From a virus (Duplodnaviria > Heunggongvirae > Uroviricota > Caudoviricetes), in IMG/VR virus record IMGVR_UViG_3300028591_000001, positions 115,547 through 179,546 of that record: 64,000 nt of DNA; one strand, given 5' to 3'. This document shows positions 14,390-57,746 of this stretch, in pieces. How positions within the stretch are numbered: the stretch's first letter is position 1; every line of letters starts with the position of its first letter. The position numbers and the translations under genes were made by a program. Below the pieces are notes generated by a model. It worked only from the letters and a program-made list of their open reading frames with translations, had not been told where the DNA came from and ran no database searches.

Positions 14390-14391
14390 AG

Positions 14392-14463
14392 TTGTCCCAC
14401 TAGGATTCGAACCCAGGCTAAAGGATTTAGAGTCCCCTGTACTGACCGTTATACTATAGGACA
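14392..14463 (-). tRNA. Suppressor tRNA with anticodon CUA (reads UAG), probably Gln-derived
   Basis: Cloverleaf: acceptor UGUCCUA/UGGGACA (U1-A72), D GUAU-AACGGUCA-GUAC, anticodon stem GGGGA/UCCUU, loop CUCUAAA (U33, C34-U35-A36, A37), T-arm CUGGG-UUCGAAU-CCUAG, discriminator A. Resembles the phage tRNA-Gln(UUG) at 34623. Confidence 0.8.
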
Positions 14464-22556: not shown

Positions 22557-22649
22557 AGCAGGTTGGTGTAATGGTCAACGTTAGTTGGTAGCTACTAATA
22601 CAACATATTCCTAAAAGGAATGATAAAGGTTCGAATCCTTTGCCTGCTG
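22557..22649 (+). tRNA. tRNA-like (93 nt) with good acceptor and T-arm, an extra ~20 nt, and no identifiable anticodon
   Basis: Acceptor AGCAGGT/GCCTGCT, T AAAGG-TTCGAAT-CCTTT. Interior carries TGGTAGCTACT. Confidence 0.35.
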
Positions 22650-22713
22650 CAAATTTAATTTTGATTTTTCATAAATTAAAATAAATTAAAAAATAAAAAT
22701 AATTTTTAATGTT

Positions 22714-29534: not shown

Positions 29535-29607
29535 ATTACATTAGCTCATTTGGTAGAGCACTAGATTGATAATCCAGGAGTAGCGAGTTCGATTCTCGTA
29601 TGTAGAC
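29535..29607 (+). tRNA. tRNA-Ile(GAU)
   Basis: D GCTC-ATTTGGTA-GAGC, anticodon stem CTAGA/TCCAG with loop TTGATAA, T GCGAG-TTCGATT-CTCGT, acceptor ATTACAT/ATGTAGA (A1-A72 mismatch). Flanked by AAAGATACTT...AAGTATCTTT. Confidence 0.65.
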
Positions 29608-33171: not shown

Positions 33172-33203
33172 TTTTATTTAAAAAATTAATATTATAATAA
33201 TTT

Positions 33204-33334
33204 AAGATACTTACAAAATATTGAATTGTATTCAATGAATTGCGGGTTCGAATCCCGTCTTACCTTATGGTATGTGGTGGAACGGTAAACACGTTGGATT
33301 AATCATCCGATTTCGATAAAAAACATAAGTATCT
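33204..33334 (+). ncRNA. Module-flanked unit with a Thr-like anticodon arm (ATTGA-ATTGTAT-TCAAT), T-arm and acceptor 3-prime strand, followed by a degenerate acceptor/D-arm-like segment. Possibly a permuted or decayed tRNA.
   Basis: AAGATACTT-ACAAA ... GCGGG-TTCGAAT-CCCGT CTTACCT T ... AAGTATCTT. Confidence 0.3.
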
Positions 33335-33341
33335 TTTAAAT

Positions 33342-33457
33342 GAGGGAATTGGTGTAATGGTAACACACGTAGCTTTTGTATCTTTTGATACATACAATAT
33401 CATTATGCGATGAATTGTGGTTTTCCGTGTTCTAGGTTCGAGTCCTAGGTTCCCTCC
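33342..33457 (+). ncRNA. tRNA-like RNA (116 nt) with acceptor, D-arm and T-arm, and the module hairpin TGTATC-TTTT-GATACA-TACAAT in place of the anticodon arm
   Basis: Acceptor GAGGGAA/TTCCCTC, D GGTG-TAATGGTAA-CACA, T CTAGG-TTCGAGT-CCTAG. Confidence 0.45.
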
Positions 33458-34700: not shown

Positions 34701-34828
34701 TAAGTTACTTACAATATTAATAATAATTAATATACTTATAACTCAAAAGTATCAGTGGTTCGAATCCATTATTTTCTATCATTTGGAAAATTAGCATAGT
34801 GGTTTAATGCAATTAATTTAAAGTAACT
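34701..34828 (+). ncRNA. Inverted-repeat-enclosed permuted tRNA-like unit: T-arm and acceptor 3-prime strand, then TCATTT, then acceptor 5-prime strand and D-arm. A 6-bp hairpin with a 9-nt loop (ATACTT-ATAACTCAA-AAGTAT) sits in the anticodon position.
   Basis: AAGTTACTT-ACAAT ... AGTGG-TTCGAAT-CCATT ATTTTCT A TCATTT GGAAAAT TA GCAT-AGTGGTTTA-ATGC A ... AAGTAACTT. Confidence 0.4.
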
Positions 34829-34833
34829 TTTAT

Positions 34834-34922
34834 GGGATCATAGTATATCGGTCAGTACTAGAAATAGGCGATTACCTCTGACTTTTAATCAGATAAGCTG
34901 GGTTCGACTCCCAGTGGTCCCA
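34834..34922 (+). tRNA. tRNA-Lys(UUU)-like, 89 nt, with a 17-nt insertion between the D-arm and the anticodon stem
   Basis: Acceptor GGGATCA/TGGTCCC, D GTAT-ATCGGTCA-GTAC, insert AGAAATAGGCGATTACC, anticodon stem TCTGA/TCAGA with loop CTTTTAA, T CTGGG-TTCGACT-CCCAG. Confidence 0.45.
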
Positions 34923-35219
34923 CAAATAAACCTAACACCGAGAGCAACGATCCTTATATTAAATATCCGGATGAAAACTAGTTGATATATGTGAGTCGGG
35001 TCGGTTAGTTTAGCATAAGTCGAAAGTTTATGTGAAGAGTTTAGGTTTATTTAATATCGCAGTGAGAATTGGTATTCAAGAGGGTCTCATAAGCCTTCCT
35101 CCGAGGATTCGATTTCCTCCGCTGCAAGGACACATAATCAAAACCTCCACGTGGTGTGTCTGGGTAATGCTAATTTGATTAGATAATTTATTTAATTTAA
35201 TTTATTTAGAATTGAATTA

Positions 35220-36096: not shown

Positions 36097-36183
36097 TATC
36101 CAATATGGCGCGTTCGACTAGTGGCTTAGGTCACAAGACTTTCAATCTTGTAGGAAGGTTGCTTCCTCAGGGGTTCGAATCCC
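36097..36183 (+). tRNA. Class-II-shaped tRNA-like (87 nt) with anticodon UUC and an 18-nt variable hairpin. Atypical.
   Basis: Acceptor GGCGCGT/ACGCGTT (two G-U), D GACT-AGTGGCTTA-GGTC, 6-bp anticodon stem ACAAGA/TCTTGT with loop CTTTCAA, variable GGAAG-GTTG-CTTCC, T AGGGG-TTCGAAT-CCCCT. Confidence 0.45.
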
Positions 36184-36380
36184 CTACGCGTTACTGGTCC
36201 AACCTAGAGCGACACGGTTGTAAAAGAATTGTCAAGCAGCTTTGGTATTTAAGCATTAAATACCTCCCAGAAGAACAAACACGCTTTGACGGGAGATGAT
36301 CTAAACGTGTTCCAATAGTATTACTATTGTAGAATCCAGAGATAATGTATTATGACCATATAAAATACATTGAGGAATCT

Positions 36381-48767: not shown

Positions 48768-50204
48768 AAATGTGCTAAAGGATACAATATTAAATATAAT
48801 GATTTGTATAATAATACATTTTTTAATAATAATATTACTTTAAATAATAAAAAATATTATAGATATTAGCCTCCTGTTAATTCTTTTTTAATTGAAGATA
48901 TTAAACCTTATTCTGAAAAAAAATATTATAAATATTCTCCTAATAAAAATATTATATTTGATGATCAAAAAATAAAAAAATATGAAATAGAACATCCAAA
49001 TATTAATAATTTTTATGAAAAACCAAATAGTTTATATATTCAAAAAATTCCAGAAAAAACTAAATCTATAGAAGAACTTAATGCTCCTAATTTTATAGAA
49101 AGCAAAGTACAAGATATTAAAGATGTTATTAGGGAATCTGGTGATGTTGGAGATTTTATTCAAACTGCTTGGAATGGTATAGCTAAACATTTTGTTAATG
49201 ATAAACAAGTTAAAACTAAAAAACGTCAACTTAAAGTAAATACACATTCTAAAGAGCAAATTTCTCAGTCTCCTAAAGAAGTCTTAGACGAAGCTTTTGC
49301 TAAAGAAACTAGAAATGGGACTGATACTCTTACTTGGGATAAAGTACCTGTAGATAGAACTGGAAATAAATATTATATTCAAGAATCATATCCTATTACA
49401 GATGATATGAGATTTGGTTCTAGAAATAGACTTGAATATAGAGATTTGGATTCTAATAATGCACCTCTTACTACATATCGTCCGATTCATAAATATGAAG
49501 ACTATGTAAAAGGAATAACCTATGCTGGTAAAAATTATAAAGCCATAGATAGAGATAGTGAAGGTCACCAAAATCATTTTATGGGTTACGATAAAGACGG
49601 AAAATTTAAGATAGGTCCTCTATCTAAATTTGGTCCTGGAGACACTATGACACAAGTTTTTTATTCTGATATTATCGGAGTTCCTAGAGATGCTAACGGA
49701 AACATTCAATATGTTGAAGATAGAAATAATCCAGGTCGTTTTCAACCTGTCGTTGATATTTATGGCGAGTCTACTTATGATGAAAACGGAAATCTCAAAA
49801 GAGGTAAAAAAGGAAGAGGTGTTCTTACTACAATGAGCAAAAAGAGAAGTCTTAATGGAAGTTATGGTAATGTTTCTGGCGGTCGTGTTCTTCTACAAGT
49901 AGGAAATGAAACTAGAATTGTAGCTGGAAGTATTGAGCATGTAATTCAAGAACTTGAACTTATGCAAAAAAATCATAAAGGACAACCTGTTAGATATTAT
50001 CAACTTGATAACGGTTCTTACAATAGAGGTCTTAGAACACGTAATGGAAAAAATATTTCTGCTTTAGATTTGAGAGATTATGATAGACAAAACACTACTA
50101 GTGCTGGAGGTGGACATTTTATGTATATATTAAATAATAAAAAAGGAGGAATACTTCCATCAATAAACCCAACCACAAGATTTAAAAATAGAAAATTTTA
50201 TTAA
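48768..50204 (+). CDS. Late protein (at least 478 aa including ORF 49407-50204) with one in-frame TAG at 48867 and no in-frame ATG at its 5-prime end. Start unresolved.
   Basis: Frame 0 is open from 48741 to TAA at 50202. Confidence 0.4.
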
Positions 50205-50515
50205 CAAATATTAACTTTTGAATTTTTGAATTCATTAGTAAATTTATTCCATAATCCTTTTCGGGTAAGGTTAAGCAGAACCTGCGAGTTGGATATGTAA
50301 TGAATCAAAGCATATTCAGAAGCACCTACTTGCTTGAATGTAGGCAAACCTTTATTATAAATACAAACTCGCGTAATGCAGCTGCAAAGTTTGTTCCATA
50401 TATGGTATAGGACTCTTAAAAATACTTTGAGGATTTCTAGATACAAGAATAAGTTGAGAAGAGGAAATTTATAATAAAAATCTGCAAAGCTAGGTAGAGG
50501 AAGTCCTAGCAAATT

Positions 50516-50592
50516 AGTGCTGTATAGACTCTCCCTGATAAGGAGTTGAAATCTTAGTTGGTCACACGTAGGTTCAAATCCTACCAGCACTA
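50516..50592 (+). tRNA. Non-canonical tRNA-like RNA with no recognisable D-arm: 7-bp acceptor, then TA, then a 4-nt stem strand, an anticodon-like hairpin (loop CTGATAA), a GTTGGTCACAC segment and a T-arm
   Basis: AGTGCTG ... GTAGG-TTCAAAT-CCTAC CAGCACT A. Paralogous to 50599-50675. Confidence 0.35.
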
Positions 50593-50598
50593 CTAATA

Positions 50599-50675
50599 CC
50601 AGGAATATCCGCTCTGTCTTATACACAGTAGAAACGGTAATTGGTCACATGTAGGTTCAACCCCTACTTCCTGGA
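50599..50675 (+). tRNA. Non-canonical tRNA-like paralog of 50516-50592, with hairpin loop CTTATAC
   Basis: CCAGGAA TA TCCG CTCTGT-CTTATAC-ACAGTAG AAACGGTAATTGGTCACAT GTAGG-TTCAACC-CCTAC TTCCTGG A. Confidence 0.35.
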
Positions 50676-50851
50676 CTAAAAATAAATAATTCTGGTCAAT
50701 GAGTGAAAGTTGTCGAGACGAGTTATTTAAGTATGTACGTTTAGTACCTCTATATTAAATTACCCATGAAGTACCTTGGTACATAGTCGGACGAGTAGAC
50801 TAAATAAGGTATAAGAAAGTTATACACGATGGAAGGAATTATTTATTTTAT

Positions 50852-50936
50852 CACCAGTTGGTCGAGTGCTCGATGGCAGGGGACTGCAAATCCTCTAGGA
50901 GAAATCCTCACGTTGGTTGGAATCCAACACTGGTGT
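50852..50936 (+). tRNA. tRNA-Cys(GCA)-like with a long variable hairpin and a 6-bp anticodon stem (allo or Sec-like shape)
   Basis: Acceptor CACCAGT/ACTGGTG, D GTCG-AGTGCT-CGAT, anticodon stem AGGGGA/TCCTCT with loop CTGCAAA, T GTTGG-TTGGAAT-CCAAC (G56 with C19). Confidence 0.45.
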
Positions 50937-51056
50937 CTACAATAATCCTAAACACTTAGCAATTGTGTAGAGAATACACTAAAAAGAGTGCTCAACTATG
51001 GCATCTATAGACCATCAAATTGCTCGTGGGATACGTTGAGAGGATTATTAAAATAA

Positions 51057-51177
51057 GAATCAATGGCGAAAAGGGTAAAGCAGGAGGAAAAATCTGTAGA
51101 ATATAACTTCTTATTGGGTAGCTACTTTAAGATTATAAGTTATATTTAGTATAGGGTTCGATTCCCTATTTGATTCT
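51057..51177 (+). ncRNA. tRNA-like RNA (121 nt) with acceptor and T-arm, and a large nested-hairpin insert (ATATAACTT...AAGTTATAT around GTAGCTAC)
   Basis: GAATCAA ... ATAGGG-TTCGATT-CCCTAT TTGATTC T. Confidence 0.3.
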
Positions 51178-51181
51178 TTAT

Positions 51182-51270
51182 AGGGGAGTAACCGGTAATG
51201 GGTTTCCGACCAGATTTGGGATCTGGAAACGTGATGAGCGTGTATGCGAGTTCGAGTCTCGTTTCCCCTA
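51182..51270 (+). tRNA. tRNA-Pro(UGG)-like with a long variable hairpin, 89 nt
   Basis: Acceptor AGGGGAG/TTCCCCT, anticodon stem CCAGA/TCTGG with loop TTTGGGA, variable ACGTG-ATGAG-CGTGT, T GCGAG-TTCGAGT-CTCGT. Confidence 0.45.
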
Positions 51271-51309
51271 CTATTTAGTAGATAGTTCTTTTAACTTAAT
51301 TAATGTAAA

Positions 51310-51957
51310 ATGAAAAAGAGTTTTATTTTAGCTTTTTTAATGGGTTTAGTAATGTCTTTTATGTCCTGCACAGGATGTAATTCTAGTAAAGAAGACATTA
51401 AATTGCAAGATTCAGTAGTAGCTACTGCTGTATTAGATGTAGAACATTCAATTGCCTTAGACAGACAAGCTATGTATGTAAACTATAAAGATGATTATCG
51501 TTGGTTTGAAACAGAAATTCTTCTTCCAGAATTTATGGACTCAGACAGTGCAACAAGTAATCCAGAAATGATTGTAAATGTTTTACAAAGCATTGTTGAA
51601 AAAGGTAATGGTGCTGATGTATGGGTACATAAATTTCAACATTTTAAAGATGGAACAGTTACACATGACTCTATTCAAGGTTTCTGGATTGAAAATTATG
51701 CACTAAATGATGAAGTAATTAAGCTTAAGTATACAGAAGCTTGGGATAGAATGATGGCAACTAATTTCCCTAAACCTCATTCAAGACATGTTACTTTAAG
51801 AAATCCTATTGGACCTGTTGCAGTTAATACACAATGGATTTTTGGTAATATCAATGAACAAATTTGGGTTGATGCTGTGACAGGTGATACTAAAAATTCT
51901 AATCCAGCTTTTCCAAAGGAAAAGGGGTTCAAAATGCCTTTAGGAGAGTGGCCCTAA
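51310..51957 (+). CDS. Putative lipoprotein, 215 aa
   Basis: Signal peptide MKKSFILAFLMGLVMSFMSC, then a hydrophilic domain. Terminator at 52022-52046. Confidence 0.55.
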   Translation: MKKSFILAFLMGLVMSFMSCTGCNSSKEDIKLQDSVVATAVLDVEHSIALDRQAMYVNYKDDYRWFETEILLPEFMDSDSATSNPEMIVNVLQSIVEKGNGADVWVHKFQHFKDGTVTHDSIQGFWIENYALNDEVIKLKYTEAWDRMMATNFPKPHSRHVTLRNPIGPVAVNTQWIFGNINEQIWVDAVTGDTKNSNPAFPKEKGFKMPLGEWP

Positions 51958-52021
51958 GAAAAATTAATTTGGTAGAACCTTGAATACATTGTTACTCATA
52001 GTCTGTTAAAATTAAAGTTAT

Positions 52022-52046
52022 GGAGCTACGAGTTAGCTCCTTTTAT
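52022..52046 (+). terminator. Rho-independent terminator
   Basis: GGAGCTA cgagt TAGCTCC followed by TTTTATT. Confidence 0.6.
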
Positions 52047-52118
52047 TCCTCCTTAGTATAAAGGTTATTACACTCGATTTGTAATCCTGAAATGGCGGTT
52101 CGATTCCACCAGGAGGAT
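52047..52118 (+). tRNA. tRNA-Thr(UGU)-like, 72 nt, with a weak anticodon stem (3 of 5 pairs)
   Basis: Acceptor TCCTCCT/AGGAGGA, D GTAT-AAAGGTTA-TTAC, loop TTTGTAA, T GGCGG-TTCGATT-CCACC. Confidence 0.45.
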
Positions 52119-52508
52119 CTACTTGGCTATATAGTAGTTGCAAATGCTATATAGACGTAAGGCTTAGTACTTTGTCTACTAAGGGTAATCGTAGGTACAC
52201 AGTCCTGTACGACAGGAGATTGTCCGAAGTTCAGTAAAAACTGTGCAAACTTGAGGTAGGTTGAAATACGAACTGTCGTGAAAACTGAAAAAGGGTTTAC
52301 AGTAGGTATAAGAATAAGAATCAGAAACCCTGAGGCTGAGGAGCTGGAAACCTCTTTAAATATTAGCTTTAACAAGCCGACAGTCCATTTGGTAATTCCA
52401 TAGGAGCGCTGTTAATCTTATTCTATGATTACTAATCAACAGGTGAAGAGGCTGTAGATTAATGAGTATTTTAGCAAGGTTTAGCACTGTACCTTAAACA
52501 GTGCTATT
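52119..52508 (+). ncRNA. Candidate structured non-coding RNA (~390 nt, GC-richer, hairpin-rich) between tRNA genes
   Basis: No ORF. Hairpins GTACA...TGTAC and GACA...TGTC. Confidence 0.3.
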
Positions 52509-52602
52509 GGGAAGGTAACGGCTTTAGTCTGTAAAACTAAACTGCATTAACAAATTGTCGTAGTGGACTCGCAGTAAATAGGTTCGAATCCTATTCTTCC
52601 CA
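52509..52602 (+). tRNA. tRNA-Tyr(GUA)-like, non-canonical: the anticodon hairpin follows acceptor-TA-ACGGC directly, and a 38-nt stem-loop with a D-like GTCG-TAGTGGAC lies before the T-arm
   Basis: GGGAAGG TA ACGG C TTTAGT-CTGTAAA-ACTAAA ... ATAGG-TTCGAAT-CCTAT TCTTCCC A. Confidence 0.35.
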
Positions 52603-52682: not shown

Positions 52683-53345
52683 TTGTTCTATTATTCGTCT
52701 TTAGGATGGAATGTTTCAAATCCTATTACTGATTGTACTGATTATGATTTTTTAGCGGAAGATAATGGAAAAATATATAAGATACAAGTTAAAACTACTA
52801 AATTTTTAACAGATTCTGGAAATTATCAAGTTCATTTAACAACTAATGGAGGAAATCAAAAAGAATATTGGAGAAAAGAATTAAATAAAGAAGAATTAGA
52901 TTATTTATTTATACTAACAGAACAAGGTATTTGTTACTCTATTCCAATAAATGAAGTAGAAACATCTAATACAATTACATTATATGATAAGTATGATAAA
53001 TATAAAGTTTTCATTTTGTCTCCAATAACAGAAGAAAATATTCATTGTAATCATAAAGAAATTCCTCTTCCAAATAGAAGTACTAAAGAACATCAATACT
53101 TTTGTGAATGTGGAAACCCTGTTTCTAGAAAAGGAGGTCTTTGTAGAAGTTGTTCTCAAAAAAGAAGAAACAATAGAAAAGTAGAACGTCCCTCTAAAGA
53201 AGAATTACTTCAATTGGTTAAAGAAAATGGAATGACTAAAACCGGAAAAATGTTTGAAGTATCTGATAAATCTATTAGTAAATGGTTAATTGATTATGGA
53301 TTACCAGGAACTATAGGAGGATTAAAAGAACAAAATTTAATATAA
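52683..53345 (+). CDS. Putative PD-(D/E)XK-like nuclease with a C-terminal zinc ribbon and HTH. Possible homing endonuclease.
   Basis: DYDFLAEDNGKIYKIQVKT, CECGNPVSRKGGLCRSC, C-terminal HTH-like LVKENGMTKTGKMFEVSDKSISKWL. Confidence 0.4.
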   Translation: MFYYSSLGWNVSNPITDCTDYDFLAEDNGKIYKIQVKTTKFLTDSGNYQVHLTTNGGNQKEYWRKELNKEELDYLFILTEQGICYSIPINEVETSNTITLYDKYDKYKVFILSPITEENIHCNHKEIPLPNRSTKEHQYFCECGNPVSRKGGLCRSCSQKRRNNRKVERPSKEELLQLVKENGMTKTGKMFEVSDKSISKWLIDYGLPGTIGGLKEQNLI

Positions 53346-53538: not shown

Positions 53539-53621
53539 GGAGGCTGAGAGCACTGGTGATTAGTGTGCTGCATTATAATTAATATTAATGTGGAAGACGG
53601 GTTCGATTCCCGTAGCCCCCA
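53539..53621 (+). tRNA. tRNA-like RNA with an acceptor (6 of 7 pairs), a 5-bp D-like arm and a canonical T-arm. The anticodon region is an AT-rich hairpin with a 10-nt loop.
   Basis: GGAGGCT ... AGCAC-TGGTGATTAGT-GTGCT ... CATTA-TAATTAATAT-TAATG ... ACGGG-TTCGATT-CCCGT AGCCCCC A. Confidence 0.3.
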
Positions 53622-57173: not shown

Positions 57174-57746
57174 ATGTCAAAATGGGAATCTGAAAAAGAA
57201 GAACTTGAAAGACTTATAAATATAGAAAAAGTCAGTTATGAAGAAATAGGTAGAAGATATGGTTGTTCTGGGAGTAATATTAAGAAAGTTGCTAGACAAT
57301 TAGGAATAGAACTCCCTCAACGTAGAAAGATAAATCCATCTGAACATTTTAACAAACAACAACATTATTGTTTAAATTGTGGAAAAGAAATTAAAACTGG
57401 TAATAAATTTTGTAATGTAAGTTGTCAATGGGAGTTTAAATATAAACACTTTATACAAAAGTGGTTAAATGGAGAAGAATCTGGAATTGTTGGGAAAGAT
57501 GATATATCAGATTATATAAGAAAATATTTATTTGAAATTCATAATAATTCTTGTGAAAAATGTGGATGGAATGAAGTAAATAAATTTACTGGAAAAGTTC
57601 CATTACAAATTCATCATATAGACGGAGATTGTACGAATAATAACATAAAAAATCTTCAATTATTATGTCCAAATTGCCATTCATTAACTGAAAATTTTGG
57701 TGCAAGAAATAAAAATTGTACAAGAATAGATAAAAGAGTAAGATAA
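57174..57746 (+). CDS. HNH homing endonuclease with an N-terminal HTH
   Basis: LQIHHIDGDCTNNNIKNLQLLCPNCH, plus SYEEIGRRYGCSGSNIKKVARQLGI. Confidence 0.75.
   Translation: MSKWESEKEELERLINIEKVSYEEIGRRYGCSGSNIKKVARQLGIELPQRRKINPSEHFNKQQHYCLNCGKEIKTGNKFCNVSCQWEFKYKHFIQKWLNGEESGIVGKDDISDYIRKYLFEIHNNSCEKCGWNEVNKFTGKVPLQIHHIDGDCTNNNIKNLQLLCPNCHSLTENFGARNKNCTRIDKRVR

What the first reader, a model, noticed from the sequence alone, without database searches (positions are those of the whole stretch)
50516..52602. Paralogous tRNA-like genes without a normal D-arm, and other off-model tRNAs
50516-50592 and 50599-50675 share the layout acceptor, TA, 4-nt strand, anticodon-like hairpin, AAA, complementary strand, TTGGTCACAy, T-arm. 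They show covarying stem changes (TAGA/TCTtA against TCCG/CGGtA). 52509-52602 (Tyr-like) is similar. Several other elements depart from the model: a Cys-like gene with a 6-bp anticodon stem and long variable arm (50852), a Pro-like gene with a long variable arm (51182), a class-II gene with anticodon UUC (36097), a Lys-like gene with a 17-nt insert (34834), and 9-nt anticodon loops (34701 unit, 54386). Altered anticodon loops in phage tRNAs have been linked to evasion of host anticodon nucleases.
Basis: seen in the sequence. Interest (0 to 1): 0.55.

Follow-up and report, generated by a model that had tools for sequence, protein, structure and literature searches.

The report
Phage tRNAs with a transposed D-arm
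Two adjacent genes (plus a tyrosine-type relative) encode isoleucine tRNAs whose D-arm is cut and re-threaded around the anticodon arm, and the same odd design is conserved in hundreds of phages yet is missed by gene finders and absent from the literature I could search.

Summary
50516-50592 (anticodon GAU) and 50599-50675 (UAU) are 77-nt RNAs with a 7-bp acceptor stem, a T-arm and a 7-nt anticodon loop, but no D hairpin. Instead, a short helix (AGA/UCU in one, CCG/CGG in the other) encloses the anticodon arm. It is followed by an unpaired strand, U-A-R-UUGGUYA-CA-Y, that reads like a D-loop.

The design is not peculiar to this window:
- A 20-base pattern found more than 120 viral contigs, giving 87 distinct sequences.
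- About 80 cultured Streptomyces phages and an isolated crAss-like Bacteroides phage carry it, almost always unannotated.
- The only hit in an isolate bacterial genome lies in a prophage.

The enclosing helix is paired in 100% of sequences, and every change is compensated. An R..Y pair covaries like the 15:48 Levitt pair. The GG and the T-loop bases that normally dock on it are invariant. ARAGORN finds 0 of 87 as they stand and 85 of 87 after one segment is moved back.

Arg and Tyr tRNAs share the topology. The Arg versions carry A where ArgRS expects A20. In some arrays these are the only Ile tRNAs.

Best reading: working tRNAs with a permuted core. Why the core is rearranged is untested; evasion of host tRNA nucleases is a guess.

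The parts
50516..50592 (+). tRNA-Ile(GAU) with transposed D-arm (whole gene; no CCA encoded)
   Evidence: Model R1 91.6 bits, E 1.1e-22. Rfam tRNA 35.4 bits with the D-arm deleted. ARAGORN does not find it.
50516..50522 (+). acceptor 5' strand, pairs with 50585-50591; discriminator A at 50592
   Evidence: 7 of 7 pairs in the sequence. Acceptor pairs covary in the family, 94.7% paired.
50526..50528 (+). 5' strand (AGA) of the helix that encloses the anticodon arm; by position equivalent to D-stem 23-25. Preceded by U8 A9 (50523-50524) and U (50525), followed by C (50529, position-26-like).
   Evidence: Alignment columns 11-13 pair with 37-39 in 87 of 87 sequences, and all changes are double-sided.
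50530..50546 (+). anticodon arm; loop CUGAUAA, anticodon GAU at 50537-50539
   Evidence: stem covariation.
50547..50551 (+). linker U-GAAA (W-GAAA in the family)
   Evidence: GAAA was fixed by my search pattern, so its invariance is not independent evidence.
50552..50554 (+). 3' strand (UCU) of the enclosing helix; by position equivalent to D-stem 10-12
50555..50567 (+). unpaired D-loop-like strand U-A-G-UUGGUCA-CA-C (proposed positions 13, A14, R15, 16-17, G18 G19, U20, 20a, A21, then C-A-Y48)
   Evidence: GG, C and A are invariant in 87 of 87 although they were not in the search pattern. R and Y covary: AU 49, GC 26, GU 1, other 11.
50568..50584 (+). T-arm (GUAGG UUCAAAU CCUAC)
50599..50675 (+). 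tRNA-Ile(UAU) with transposed D-arm. Helix CCG 50609-50611 / CGG 50635-50637; anticodon 50620-50622; D-loop-like strand 50638-50650; T-arm 50651-50667; acceptor 50599-50605 / 50668-50674.
   Evidence: Model R1 93.8 bits, E 2.6e-23. The MFE fold of the single sequence already gives this structure. It is the only UAU-anticodon tRNA found in the window.
52509..52602 (+). tRNA-Tyr(GUA)-type gene of related topology. ACGG 52518-52521 pairs with UCGU 52558-52561 around the anticodon arm (anticodon 52531-52533). A-GUGG follows. The moved segment sits inside a CUGC/GCAG stem at 52542-52545 / 52571-52574.
   Evidence: Rfam 34.3 bits with the D-arm deleted and a 34-nt insert. Homologues L149/L243 and L379 have covarying acceptor, anticodon and T stems.

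Best explanation
These are working elongator tRNAs with a rearranged core: Ile-GAU, Ile-UAU and a Tyr-GUA relative.

**Order of parts.** In a normal tRNA the order is [1-9][D-stem 5' strand + D-loop, 10-21][D-stem 3' strand, 26, anticodon arm, 22-45][46-76]. Here it is [1-9][22-45]-AAA-[10-21][46-76]. After U8-A9 the chain runs straight down one strand of the D-stem into the anticodon stem. It comes back up the anticodon stem and, after a GAAA linker, forms the other D-stem strand. Only then does it lay out the D-loop sequence (A14, R15, G18 G19, A21) as a single strand leading through C-A-Y48 into the T-arm.

**Proposed fold.**
- The helix stack is the same length as in a normal tRNA: 4 layers, then position 26, then 5 base pairs.
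- The bases that hold the elbow together are all present: U8-A14, R15-Y48, and G18 G19 against the T-loop.
- I therefore propose that the molecule folds into the usual L shape, is processed and given CCA by host enzymes, and is charged by the host IleRS (ArgRS or TyrRS for the sister families). It would then decode AUU/AUC and AUA for an AT-rich phage.

**Shown versus inferred.** The secondary structure, the conservation, the covariation and the restriction to phages are shown. The L-shaped fold, charging and use on the ribosome are inferred. The reason for the rearrangement is a guess: escape from host enzymes that recognise or cut the normal D-arm or variable region.
For: 1. **Structure.** RNAalifold predicts exactly this structure on its own.
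   - Enclosing helix: 100% paired in 87 distinct sequences, with 3-4 pair types per pair.
   - Covariation score: 0.775, against 0.196 when shuffled and at most 0.163 when slid.
   - The 17 highest-ranked covarying column pairs are the four helices plus the R42:Y54 pair.
2. **D-loop signature.** G47, G48, C52 and A53 and the T-loop U, U, C, A are invariant or nearly so, although none was in the search pattern.
3. **One move restores a cloverleaf.** ARAGORN finds 0 of 87 as they stand. After shifting columns 37-51 to follow U8-A9 and dropping AAA, it finds 85 of 87 as tRNA-Ile or tRNA-Met.
4. **Isotype logic.**
   - All 87 have NAU anticodons (GAU 37, UAU 32, CAU 18) and discriminator A.
   - Sister Arg genes cover ACG, UCG, CCG, GCG, UCU and CCU.
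   - The base after GG is A in all 8 Arg genes found without that base in the query. A20 is a known ArgRS determinant (established knowledge). It is U in 87 of 87 Ile genes.
5. **They fill gaps in tRNA arrays.**
   - In the crAss-like arrays L030, L064 and L089 (20-24 tRNAs) ARAGORN finds no Ile tRNA; the two odd genes sit inside the array.
   - In Kehishuvirus tikkala, within the 6-kb stretch of the tRNA array examined, the GAU gene is the non-canonical one and lies unannotated between tRNA-Trp and tRNA-Met.
6. **Demand.** AUA makes up 158 of 521 Ile codons in the window's ORFs, and 50599 is the only UAU tRNA.
7. **No dedicated partner.** The commonest neighbouring ORF is an HNH endonuclease (40 of 143 loci). 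No aaRS or modification enzyme recurs. This fits use of host enzymes.
Against: - There is no expression, processing, charging or structure-probing data for any member.
- The 3D claim rests on sequence logic alone. Whether A9 can join the top of the D-stem, and A21 the variable strand, without strain was not modelled.
- U8, A9, GAAA and the U-A after the helix were fixed by my search pattern, so their invariance is not independent evidence.
- The ARAGORN re-permutation test also passes with the two stem strands swapped. It therefore does not prove which strand corresponds to 10-13.
- This window also has two canonical tRNA-Ile(GAU) genes, at 29535 and 37014, so the GAU copy is redundant here.
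- The first anticodon-stem pair is U.U in the Ile family.
- The Tyr-type helix is supported by only three distinct sequences and one G.U to U.G swap.
- The anti-defence motive has no direct support.
Confidence: 0.68

Rival explanations
1. They are tRNA-shaped decoys rather than decoders. They would be made in quantity to soak up or mislead a host tRNA-directed nuclease, modification enzyme or toxin, without being charged or entering the ribosome.
For: - Phage tRNAs have been proposed to act as a decoy or supplement against tRNA-cutting defences (PMC13096335).
- Many arrays carry a canonical Ile(GAU) gene right beside the odd one (L013, L046, L126, L134, L135), as does this window. So decoding does not always need the odd gene.
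Against: - A decoy does not need a full set of anticodons: GAU, UAU and CAU, plus six Arg anticodons.
- It does not need synthetase determinants (A73 in 87 of 87 Ile genes, A20 in the Arg genes), nor an intact acceptor/T-arm for EF-Tu.
- In several arrays these are the only Ile tRNAs.
Confidence: 0.12
2. The rearrangement serves the DNA, not the RNA. Reordering the gene destroys the recognition site of homing endonucleases that target canonical tRNA genes in phage arrays. The RNA merely remains good enough to work.
For: - HNH endonuclease ORFs are the commonest neighbours, in 40 of 143 loci.
- Two lie in this array, at 52683-53345 and 57174-57746.
- SegB-type endonucleases are reported to cut within tRNA-containing sequences (PMC13096335).
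Against: - The family keeps one precise architecture across very distant phages, with strong purifying selection on RNA pairing and on tertiary bases. That points to selection on the RNA.
- No endonuclease target site was examined.
Confidence: 0.07
3. They are decayed tRNA pseudogenes or gene fragments, left over from recombination in a fast-changing tRNA array.
For: - The window does contain T-arm-only fragments and partial tRNA hits: 33200-33266, near 34750, and 53555-53621.
- General tRNA finders reject these genes or score them poorly.
Against: - There are 87 distinct sequences in more than 120 viral contigs.
- All helices are maintained by compensatory changes.
- The length is constant at 76-79 nt, and the loop bases are invariant.
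Confidence: 0.02

Closest known systems
Canonical bacterial and phage tRNA-Ile (cloverleaf, Rfam RF00005)
   Same: 7-bp acceptor stem, discriminator A73, 5-bp T-stem with a UUCRA T-loop, and a 7-nt anticodon loop with U33 and A37. Total length is about 77 nt. A D-loop-type sequence (A, R, YY, GG, U, Y, A) and an R..Y pair that behaves like 15:48 are both present.
   Different: There is no D hairpin. The two D-stem strands lie on either side of the anticodon arm, and the D-loop sequence is an open strand in the place of the variable loop. Segments 10-21 and 22-45 are in swapped order.
D-arm-lacking mitochondrial tRNAs (mammalian mt tRNA-Ser(AGY), nematode mt tRNAs; review PMC7609411)
   Same: On paper both are a three-way junction: acceptor, anticodon arm and T-arm, with a short connector where the D-arm should be.
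   Different: Per the review, nematode D-arm-less tRNAs gain flexibility from a short T-arm and a connector in place of the D-arm. It reports loss of the G18/G19 and T-Psi-C motifs for other unusual mt-tRNAs and for tRNA-Pyl. The phage family keeps GG and the T-loop and adds a helix that restores the full stack length. It is viral, not organellar.
Class II tRNAs (long variable arm: Leu, Ser, bacterial Tyr)
   Same: Extra nucleotides lie between the anticodon arm and the T-arm. The Tyr-type gene at 52509 keeps a CUGC/GCAG stem there.
   Different: In the Ile and Arg families the extra strand does not fold on itself. It pairs with the strand upstream of the anticodon arm.
Permuted and split tRNA genes (Cyanidioschyzon merolae, Nanoarchaeum); recalled from memory, not tested here
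   Same: The order of tRNA segments in the gene differs from the textbook order.
   Different: As I recall, those genes are processed back into a normal cloverleaf. Here the gene starts and ends with the two acceptor strands, so the rearrangement should persist in the mature RNA.
Phage T5 tRNA-Tyr that resists retron-Eco7/Septu (PMC13096335, citing Azam et al. 2024)
   Same: A phage tRNA whose difference from the host tRNA lies outside the anticodon loop, in the variable region.
   Different: T5 tRNA-Tyr is still a cloverleaf. No nuclease is known to target the D-arm or variable region of tRNA-Ile, and no resistance was tested for the present family.

Membership tests
tRNA (canonical cloverleaf, RF00005) | 7-bp acceptor stem closed by the two ends, with an unpaired discriminator | tested here: met
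   7 of 7 pairs in both genes. 94.7% of cells are paired across 87 relatives, and all 7 pairs show double-sided changes.
tRNA (canonical cloverleaf, RF00005) | T-arm: 5-bp stem and 7-nt loop U-U-C-R-A-N-N | tested here: met
   96.1% paired. U60, U61, C62 and A64 are invariant or nearly so.
tRNA (canonical cloverleaf, RF00005) | Anticodon arm: 5-bp stem and 7-nt loop with U33 and a purine at 37 | tested here: met
   Loops are CUGAUAA and CUUAUAC. There are four Watson-Crick pairs, and a U.U at the 27-43 position.
tRNA (canonical cloverleaf, RF00005) | D-arm hairpin between positions 9 and 26 | tested here: not met
   The Rfam alignment replaces 15 model positions with 4 nt. ARAGORN detects 0 of 87. 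Five nucleotides separate A9 from the anticodon stem.
tRNA (canonical cloverleaf, RF00005) | Variable region of 4-5 nt, or a self-contained hairpin | tested here: not met
   There are 21-22 nt between the anticodon stem and the T-stem. Three of them pair with the strand 5' of the anticodon arm.
tRNA (canonical cloverleaf, RF00005) | Score at or above Rfam's gathering threshold (29 bits) | tested here: inconclusive
   50516 scores 35.4 bits and 52509 scores 34.3 bits. 50599 is not reported even at E up to 10.
tRNA (functional definition) | Aminoacylated and used on the ribosome | not testable with these tools
   Only indirect evidence: anticodon sets, A73 and A20, and arrays in which these are the only Ile genes.
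D-arm-lacking mitochondrial tRNAs | D-arm replaced by a short connector, with loss of the conserved D-loop/T-loop contacts | tested here: not met
   GG and the T-loop are invariant, and the R..Y pair covaries. The elements are in phage genomes.
Class II (long variable arm) tRNAs | The variable region forms its own stem-loop, and a normal D-arm is present | tested here: not met
   There is no internal pairing of the extra strand in the consensus fold of the Ile family, and the D-arm is absent. The Tyr-type gene has a CUGC/GCAG stem but also lacks the D hairpin.
allo-tRNA (8/4 or 9/3 acceptor/T-stem) | 12-bp acceptor branch split 8/4 or 9/3 | tested here: not met
   The split is 7/5.

The most novel reading that the evidence does not exclude
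A previously undescribed architectural class of natural tRNA, restricted to phages.

**The architecture.** The 5' half of the D-arm (positions 10-21) has been moved into the variable region. The RNA would be a topological isomer of the cloverleaf that still folds into the L shape.

**Its extent.**
- It exists for Ile (GAU, UAU, CAU), for Arg (six anticodons) and for Tyr.
- It occurs in phages of Bacteroidota and Actinomycetota, and probably of Bacillota.
- It is the sole source of phage Ile tRNA in some crAss-like arrays.
- It has escaped annotation because tRNA finders assume the cloverleaf order.

**Possible reason.** It may have spread because the altered backbone path defeats host enzymes that attack the D-arm or variable side of tRNAs.
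Probability: 0.5. Interest if true: 0.88.

Novelty: new variant of a known kind. Interest (0 to 1): 0.8.

Why it matters
**For tRNA biology.** Outside mitochondria, the order of the four arms is treated as fixed. A family that keeps the tertiary contacts but threads the chain differently would show that the L shape, not the cloverleaf order, is what selection holds. It would also be a natural test of what RNase P, the CCA-adding enzyme, synthetases, EF-Tu and the ribosome really need.

**For annotation.** Hundreds of phage genomes appear to be missing tRNA-Ile and tRNA-Arg genes, or have them mislabelled. One example is 'tRNA-Phe(gaa)' in Streptomyces phage Mildred21, whose anticodon loop reads UCG. 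Such gaps distort estimates of phage tRNA sets and codon supply.

**For phage defence.** If the design protects against tRNA-cutting systems, it is a new route of escape. It would also be a possible scaffold for orthogonal tRNAs.

**Testability.** Cultured hosts and phages that carry these genes already exist, so experiments are possible now.

Tried and rejected
**Minus-strand ORF.** The 141-aa ORF at 50201-50626, which overlaps the first gene, has no PHROG match. The RNA is conserved in unrelated contexts, so I treat the ORF as spurious.

**Other Rfam families.** Nothing but weak chance hits at E up to 10.

**blastn of the Tyr-type gene against GenBank phages.** No match.

**Two loose viral scans for the CAUUAACAA motif.** Only L149, L184 and L228 were useful. 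A stricter pattern found three loci.

**A dedicated protein partner.** Clustering the ORFs within 4 kb of 143 loci gave only HNH endonucleases and lineage-specific proteins.

**A cellular origin.** One scan of 185,579 species genomes gave 22 hits. All but one are contigs of metagenome-assembled genomes, several of them long; one (JBAZIW010000001.1) has the same length, 362,763 bases, as a viral contig already found in the viral scan. The one isolate hit, Pedobacter nyackensis, lies beside a portal-protein gene.

**Literature.** Seven full-text searches, plus text searches within three papers: a 2020 review of non-canonical tRNAs and two recent phage-defence papers. I found no description of this topology. 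The library lacks most subscription journals, so absence is not proof.

**My loose structural scanner.** It produced many false positives on ordinary tRNAs. I used only the hits I could parse by hand.

**The strand-swapped ARAGORN control.** It did not discriminate between the two strand assignments.
Full report
**What is in the window.** The window is phage DNA with 30.7% G+C. It encodes an exonuclease, a replication initiator and HNH endonucleases and is packed with tRNA genes: ARAGORN finds 28 and Rfam 23. The two elements of the finding lie 6 nt apart on the + strand, within a tRNA-rich stretch. Both are 77 nt and read as follows:
- 7-nt acceptor strand, then U-A;
- 4 nt (UAGA in the first, UCCG in the second), then C;
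- an anticodon hairpin of 5+7+5 nt, with loops CUGAUAA and CUUAUAC, so anticodons GAU and UAU;
- U or A, then GAAA;
- a strand complementary to the 4 nt (UCU-UA, CGG-UA);
- R-UUGGUCACA-Y-G;
- a normal T-arm, the acceptor 3' strand and a discriminator A.

ARAGORN finds neither element. The Rfam tRNA model reaches 35.4 bits for the first, but only by deleting the D-arm and inserting 18 nt in the variable region. It does not report the second at all.

**It is a large family, not a local oddity.**
- A blastn search of GenBank phages with the region matched the two 77-nt elements themselves. The hits were in Streptomyces phages, in crAss-like phage cr130_1 and in 'bajarodcaudo virus 1', nearly always with no annotation under the match.
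- Every usable hit also had a complementary acceptor pair and a T-arm, although neither was in the pattern. That gave 87 distinct sequences of 76-79 nt, all with discriminator A and all with NAU anticodons: GAU 37, UAU 32, CAU 18.
- Further blastn searches found about 80 Streptomyces phages, Microbacterium phage A3Wally and the isolated crAss-like phage Kehishuvirus 'tikkala' of Bacteroides cellulosilyticus.
- The same pattern hit only 22 contigs among 185,579 species genomes. All but one are contigs of metagenome-assembled genomes, and one of those has the same length as a viral contig found earlier. The single isolate genome, Pedobacter nyackensis, has the element beside a portal-protein gene, so it lies in a prophage.

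**The structure is well supported.**
- On the 87-sequence alignment, RNAalifold predicts four helices on its own: acceptor, T-stem, anticodon stem, and a 3-bp helix (columns 11-13 with 37-39) that encloses the anticodon arm.
- That helix is paired in 87 of 87 sequences, with 3-4 pair types per position and no single-sided change.
- Over the whole structure 96.6% of cells pair, against 67.3% when shuffled.
- The covariation score is 0.775, against 0.196 when shuffled and at most 0.163 when the partners are slid.
- In an unbiased mutual-information ranking of all column pairs, the top 17 are exactly the helix pairs plus one pair of formally unpaired positions. These are R at column 42 and Y at column 54, which occur as A..U 49 times and G..C 26 times.

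**The open strand is a displaced D-loop.** After the enclosing helix the sequence is U-A-R-(Y)U-G-G-U-Y-A-C-A-Y, which carries the signature of D-loop positions 13-21:
- A14, R15, G18, G19 and A21 are all represented.
- R15 covaries with a pyrimidine just before the T-stem, as the 15:48 Levitt pair does in ordinary tRNAs.
- The GG, and the T-loop bases it normally contacts, are invariant although they were not part of the search pattern.

Read this way, the strand before the anticodon arm corresponds to D-stem 22-25 and runs through a position-26-like C into the anticodon stem. The strand after GAAA corresponds to 10-13 and runs into 14-21. The gene order is thus [1-9][22-45]-AAA-[10-21][46-76]. 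The stack of 4 layers, one nucleotide and 5 base pairs has the same length as the D-stem/26/anticodon-stem stack of a normal tRNA.

As a check, I moved columns 37-51 back to follow U8-A9 and deleted AAA. ARAGORN then recognised 85 of 87 sequences as tRNA, against 0 of 87 before. That test also passes with the two stem strands swapped, so it shows that one move restores a cloverleaf but not which strand is which. The three-dimensional fold is inferred, not shown.

**Evidence that they work as tRNAs.**
- The covariance model built from the family scores the two window genes 91.6 and 93.8 bits. In other loci it found weaker relatives with the same topology but other anticodons.
- A dedicated scan gave 39 distinct Arg-type genes with ACG, UCG, CCG or GCG anticodons, and their helices covary: score 0.758 against 0.238. 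UCU and CCU versions also exist.
- In all eight Arg genes found without fixing that base, the nucleotide after GG is A. This is the position of A20, a known ArgRS determinant. It is U in 87 of 87 Ile genes.
- Streptomyces phage Mildred21 annotates one such gene as tRNA-Phe(gaa), but its loop CUUCGAA puts UCG in the anticodon position.
- In the crAss-like arrays L030, L064 and L089 (20-24 tRNAs) ARAGORN finds no Ile tRNA, and the GAU and UAU rearranged genes sit inside the array.
- In Kehishuvirus tikkala the rearranged gene is the GAU decoder within the 6-kb stretch examined.
- In this window AUA makes up 30% of Ile codons, and 50599 is the only UAU tRNA.
- No synthetase or modification enzyme recurs nearby. 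The commonest neighbour is an HNH endonuclease.

**The Tyr-type gene.** 52509-52602 has anticodon GUA. Its ACGG and UCGU flank the anticodon arm, followed by A-GUGG. Here the displaced segment lies inside a CUGC/GCAG stem at the variable-arm position. Two further distinct homologues (L149/L243 and L379) keep the motif, while their acceptor, anticodon and T stems covary. The enclosing helix changes only from G.U to U.G. A second Tyr subfamily (L184, L228) has a 5-bp enclosing helix with two compensated changes, CCCCA/UGGGG against CCCUG/CAGGG. Support here is thinner than for Ile and Arg.

**Why the design exists.** This is not settled. Phage tRNAs can escape tRNA-cutting defences through differences outside the anticodon loop: T5 tRNA-Tyr resists retron-Eco7 through its variable loop, and Septu cuts that loop (PMC13096335). 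A rearranged D-arm and variable side could do the same, and many arrays keep a canonical and a rearranged Ile gene side by side. No nuclease with that specificity for tRNA-Ile or tRNA-Arg is known to me, and nothing here tests the idea. The rivals are a decoy role, protection of the DNA from homing endonucleases, and neutral drift within a tolerant fold. Pseudogene decay is excluded by the covariation.

**Comparison with what is known.** These genes meet the acceptor, T-arm and anticodon-arm criteria of a tRNA. They fail the D-hairpin and variable-region criteria.
- They are not like mitochondrial D-arm-less tRNAs, which do not retain the canonical D-loop/T-loop elbow contact (PMC7609411).
- They are not class II tRNAs, whose extra arm folds on itself.
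- They are not allo-tRNAs, whose acceptor/T-stem split is 8/4 or 9/3.
- They are not permuted genes that are processed back to a cloverleaf.

Seven full-text searches and the 2020 review of non-canonical tRNAs gave no description of this topology. Rfam 15 has no family for it. The literature library is incomplete, so prior description cannot be excluded.

**Verdict.**
- I rate it a new variant of a known kind, with high interest, because it is widespread and strongly supported by comparative evidence.
- It is testable in cultured phage-host pairs.

Noticed in passing
window 52120-52508: A 389-nt stretch lies between tRNA-Thr and the Tyr-type gene; its only listed ORF is an 82-aa minus-strand one with no PHROG match. 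It folds better than all 100 shuffles (z = -2.74). No Rfam family matches it, and only 55 nt resemble Vibrio phage 11895-B1. It may be a structured RNA.
   Followed up: partly
window 33343-33456: A tRNA hit of 36.2 bits carries a 47-nt insert in the anticodon loop. ARAGORN does not call it.
   Followed up: no
window 34834-34923: A Lys(UUU)-type gene has a 17-nt insert between the D-arm and the anticodon stem. ARAGORN reads it as Ala(ggc), and Rfam scores it just below threshold (27.1 bits).
   Followed up: partly
window 35127-35193: A weak HDV-like ribozyme match (25.3 bits, gathering score 44) starts at the last bases of tRNA-Met (35057-35128). As I recall, HDV-like ribozymes next to phage tRNAs have been reported.
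   Followed up: no
window 14391-14463 (-): A tRNA with anticodon CUA, which would act as an amber suppressor. It suggests TAG is read as sense in part of this phage. Similar genes occur in L003 and L061.
   Followed up: no
window 50852-50937, 51182-51271, 36107-36194; also L005, L008, L036, L061, L085, L124: Cys, Pro and Glu tRNAs carry a long extra arm, although these isotypes normally have a short variable loop. Other phage arrays show the same for Asn, His, Ile, Glu, Met, Thr, Lys and Arg (ARAGORN lengths 81-96 nt), often right beside a normal-length copy.
   Followed up: partly
window 52545-52553; L013:872-950(-), L085:1730-1807(-), L184: The motif CAUUAACAA follows the anticodon arm in the Tyr-type gene, and also in variant Ile genes of other phages, where it takes the place of W-GAAA. 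Its role is unknown.
   Followed up: partly
L380:1494-1569 (Streptomyces phage Mildred21, MF155946.1 91367-91442): This gene is annotated tRNA-Phe(gaa). Its loop CUUCGAA puts UCG in the anticodon position, and it has the rearranged topology, so it is probably tRNA-Arg.
   Followed up: yes
window 52683-53345, 57174-57746: HNH endonuclease ORFs lie inside the tRNA array. An HNH-type ORF is the commonest neighbour of the rearranged Ile genes elsewhere (40 of 143 loci).
   Followed up: partly
window 33200-33266, 34750-34775, 51095-51176, 53540-53621, 22557-22650: Partial or odd tRNA-like pieces: T-arm-only fragments, weak model hits, and an ARAGORN 'tRNA-???' with a 2-nt anticodon. The array seems to hold several more off-model or decayed elements.
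   Followed up: no
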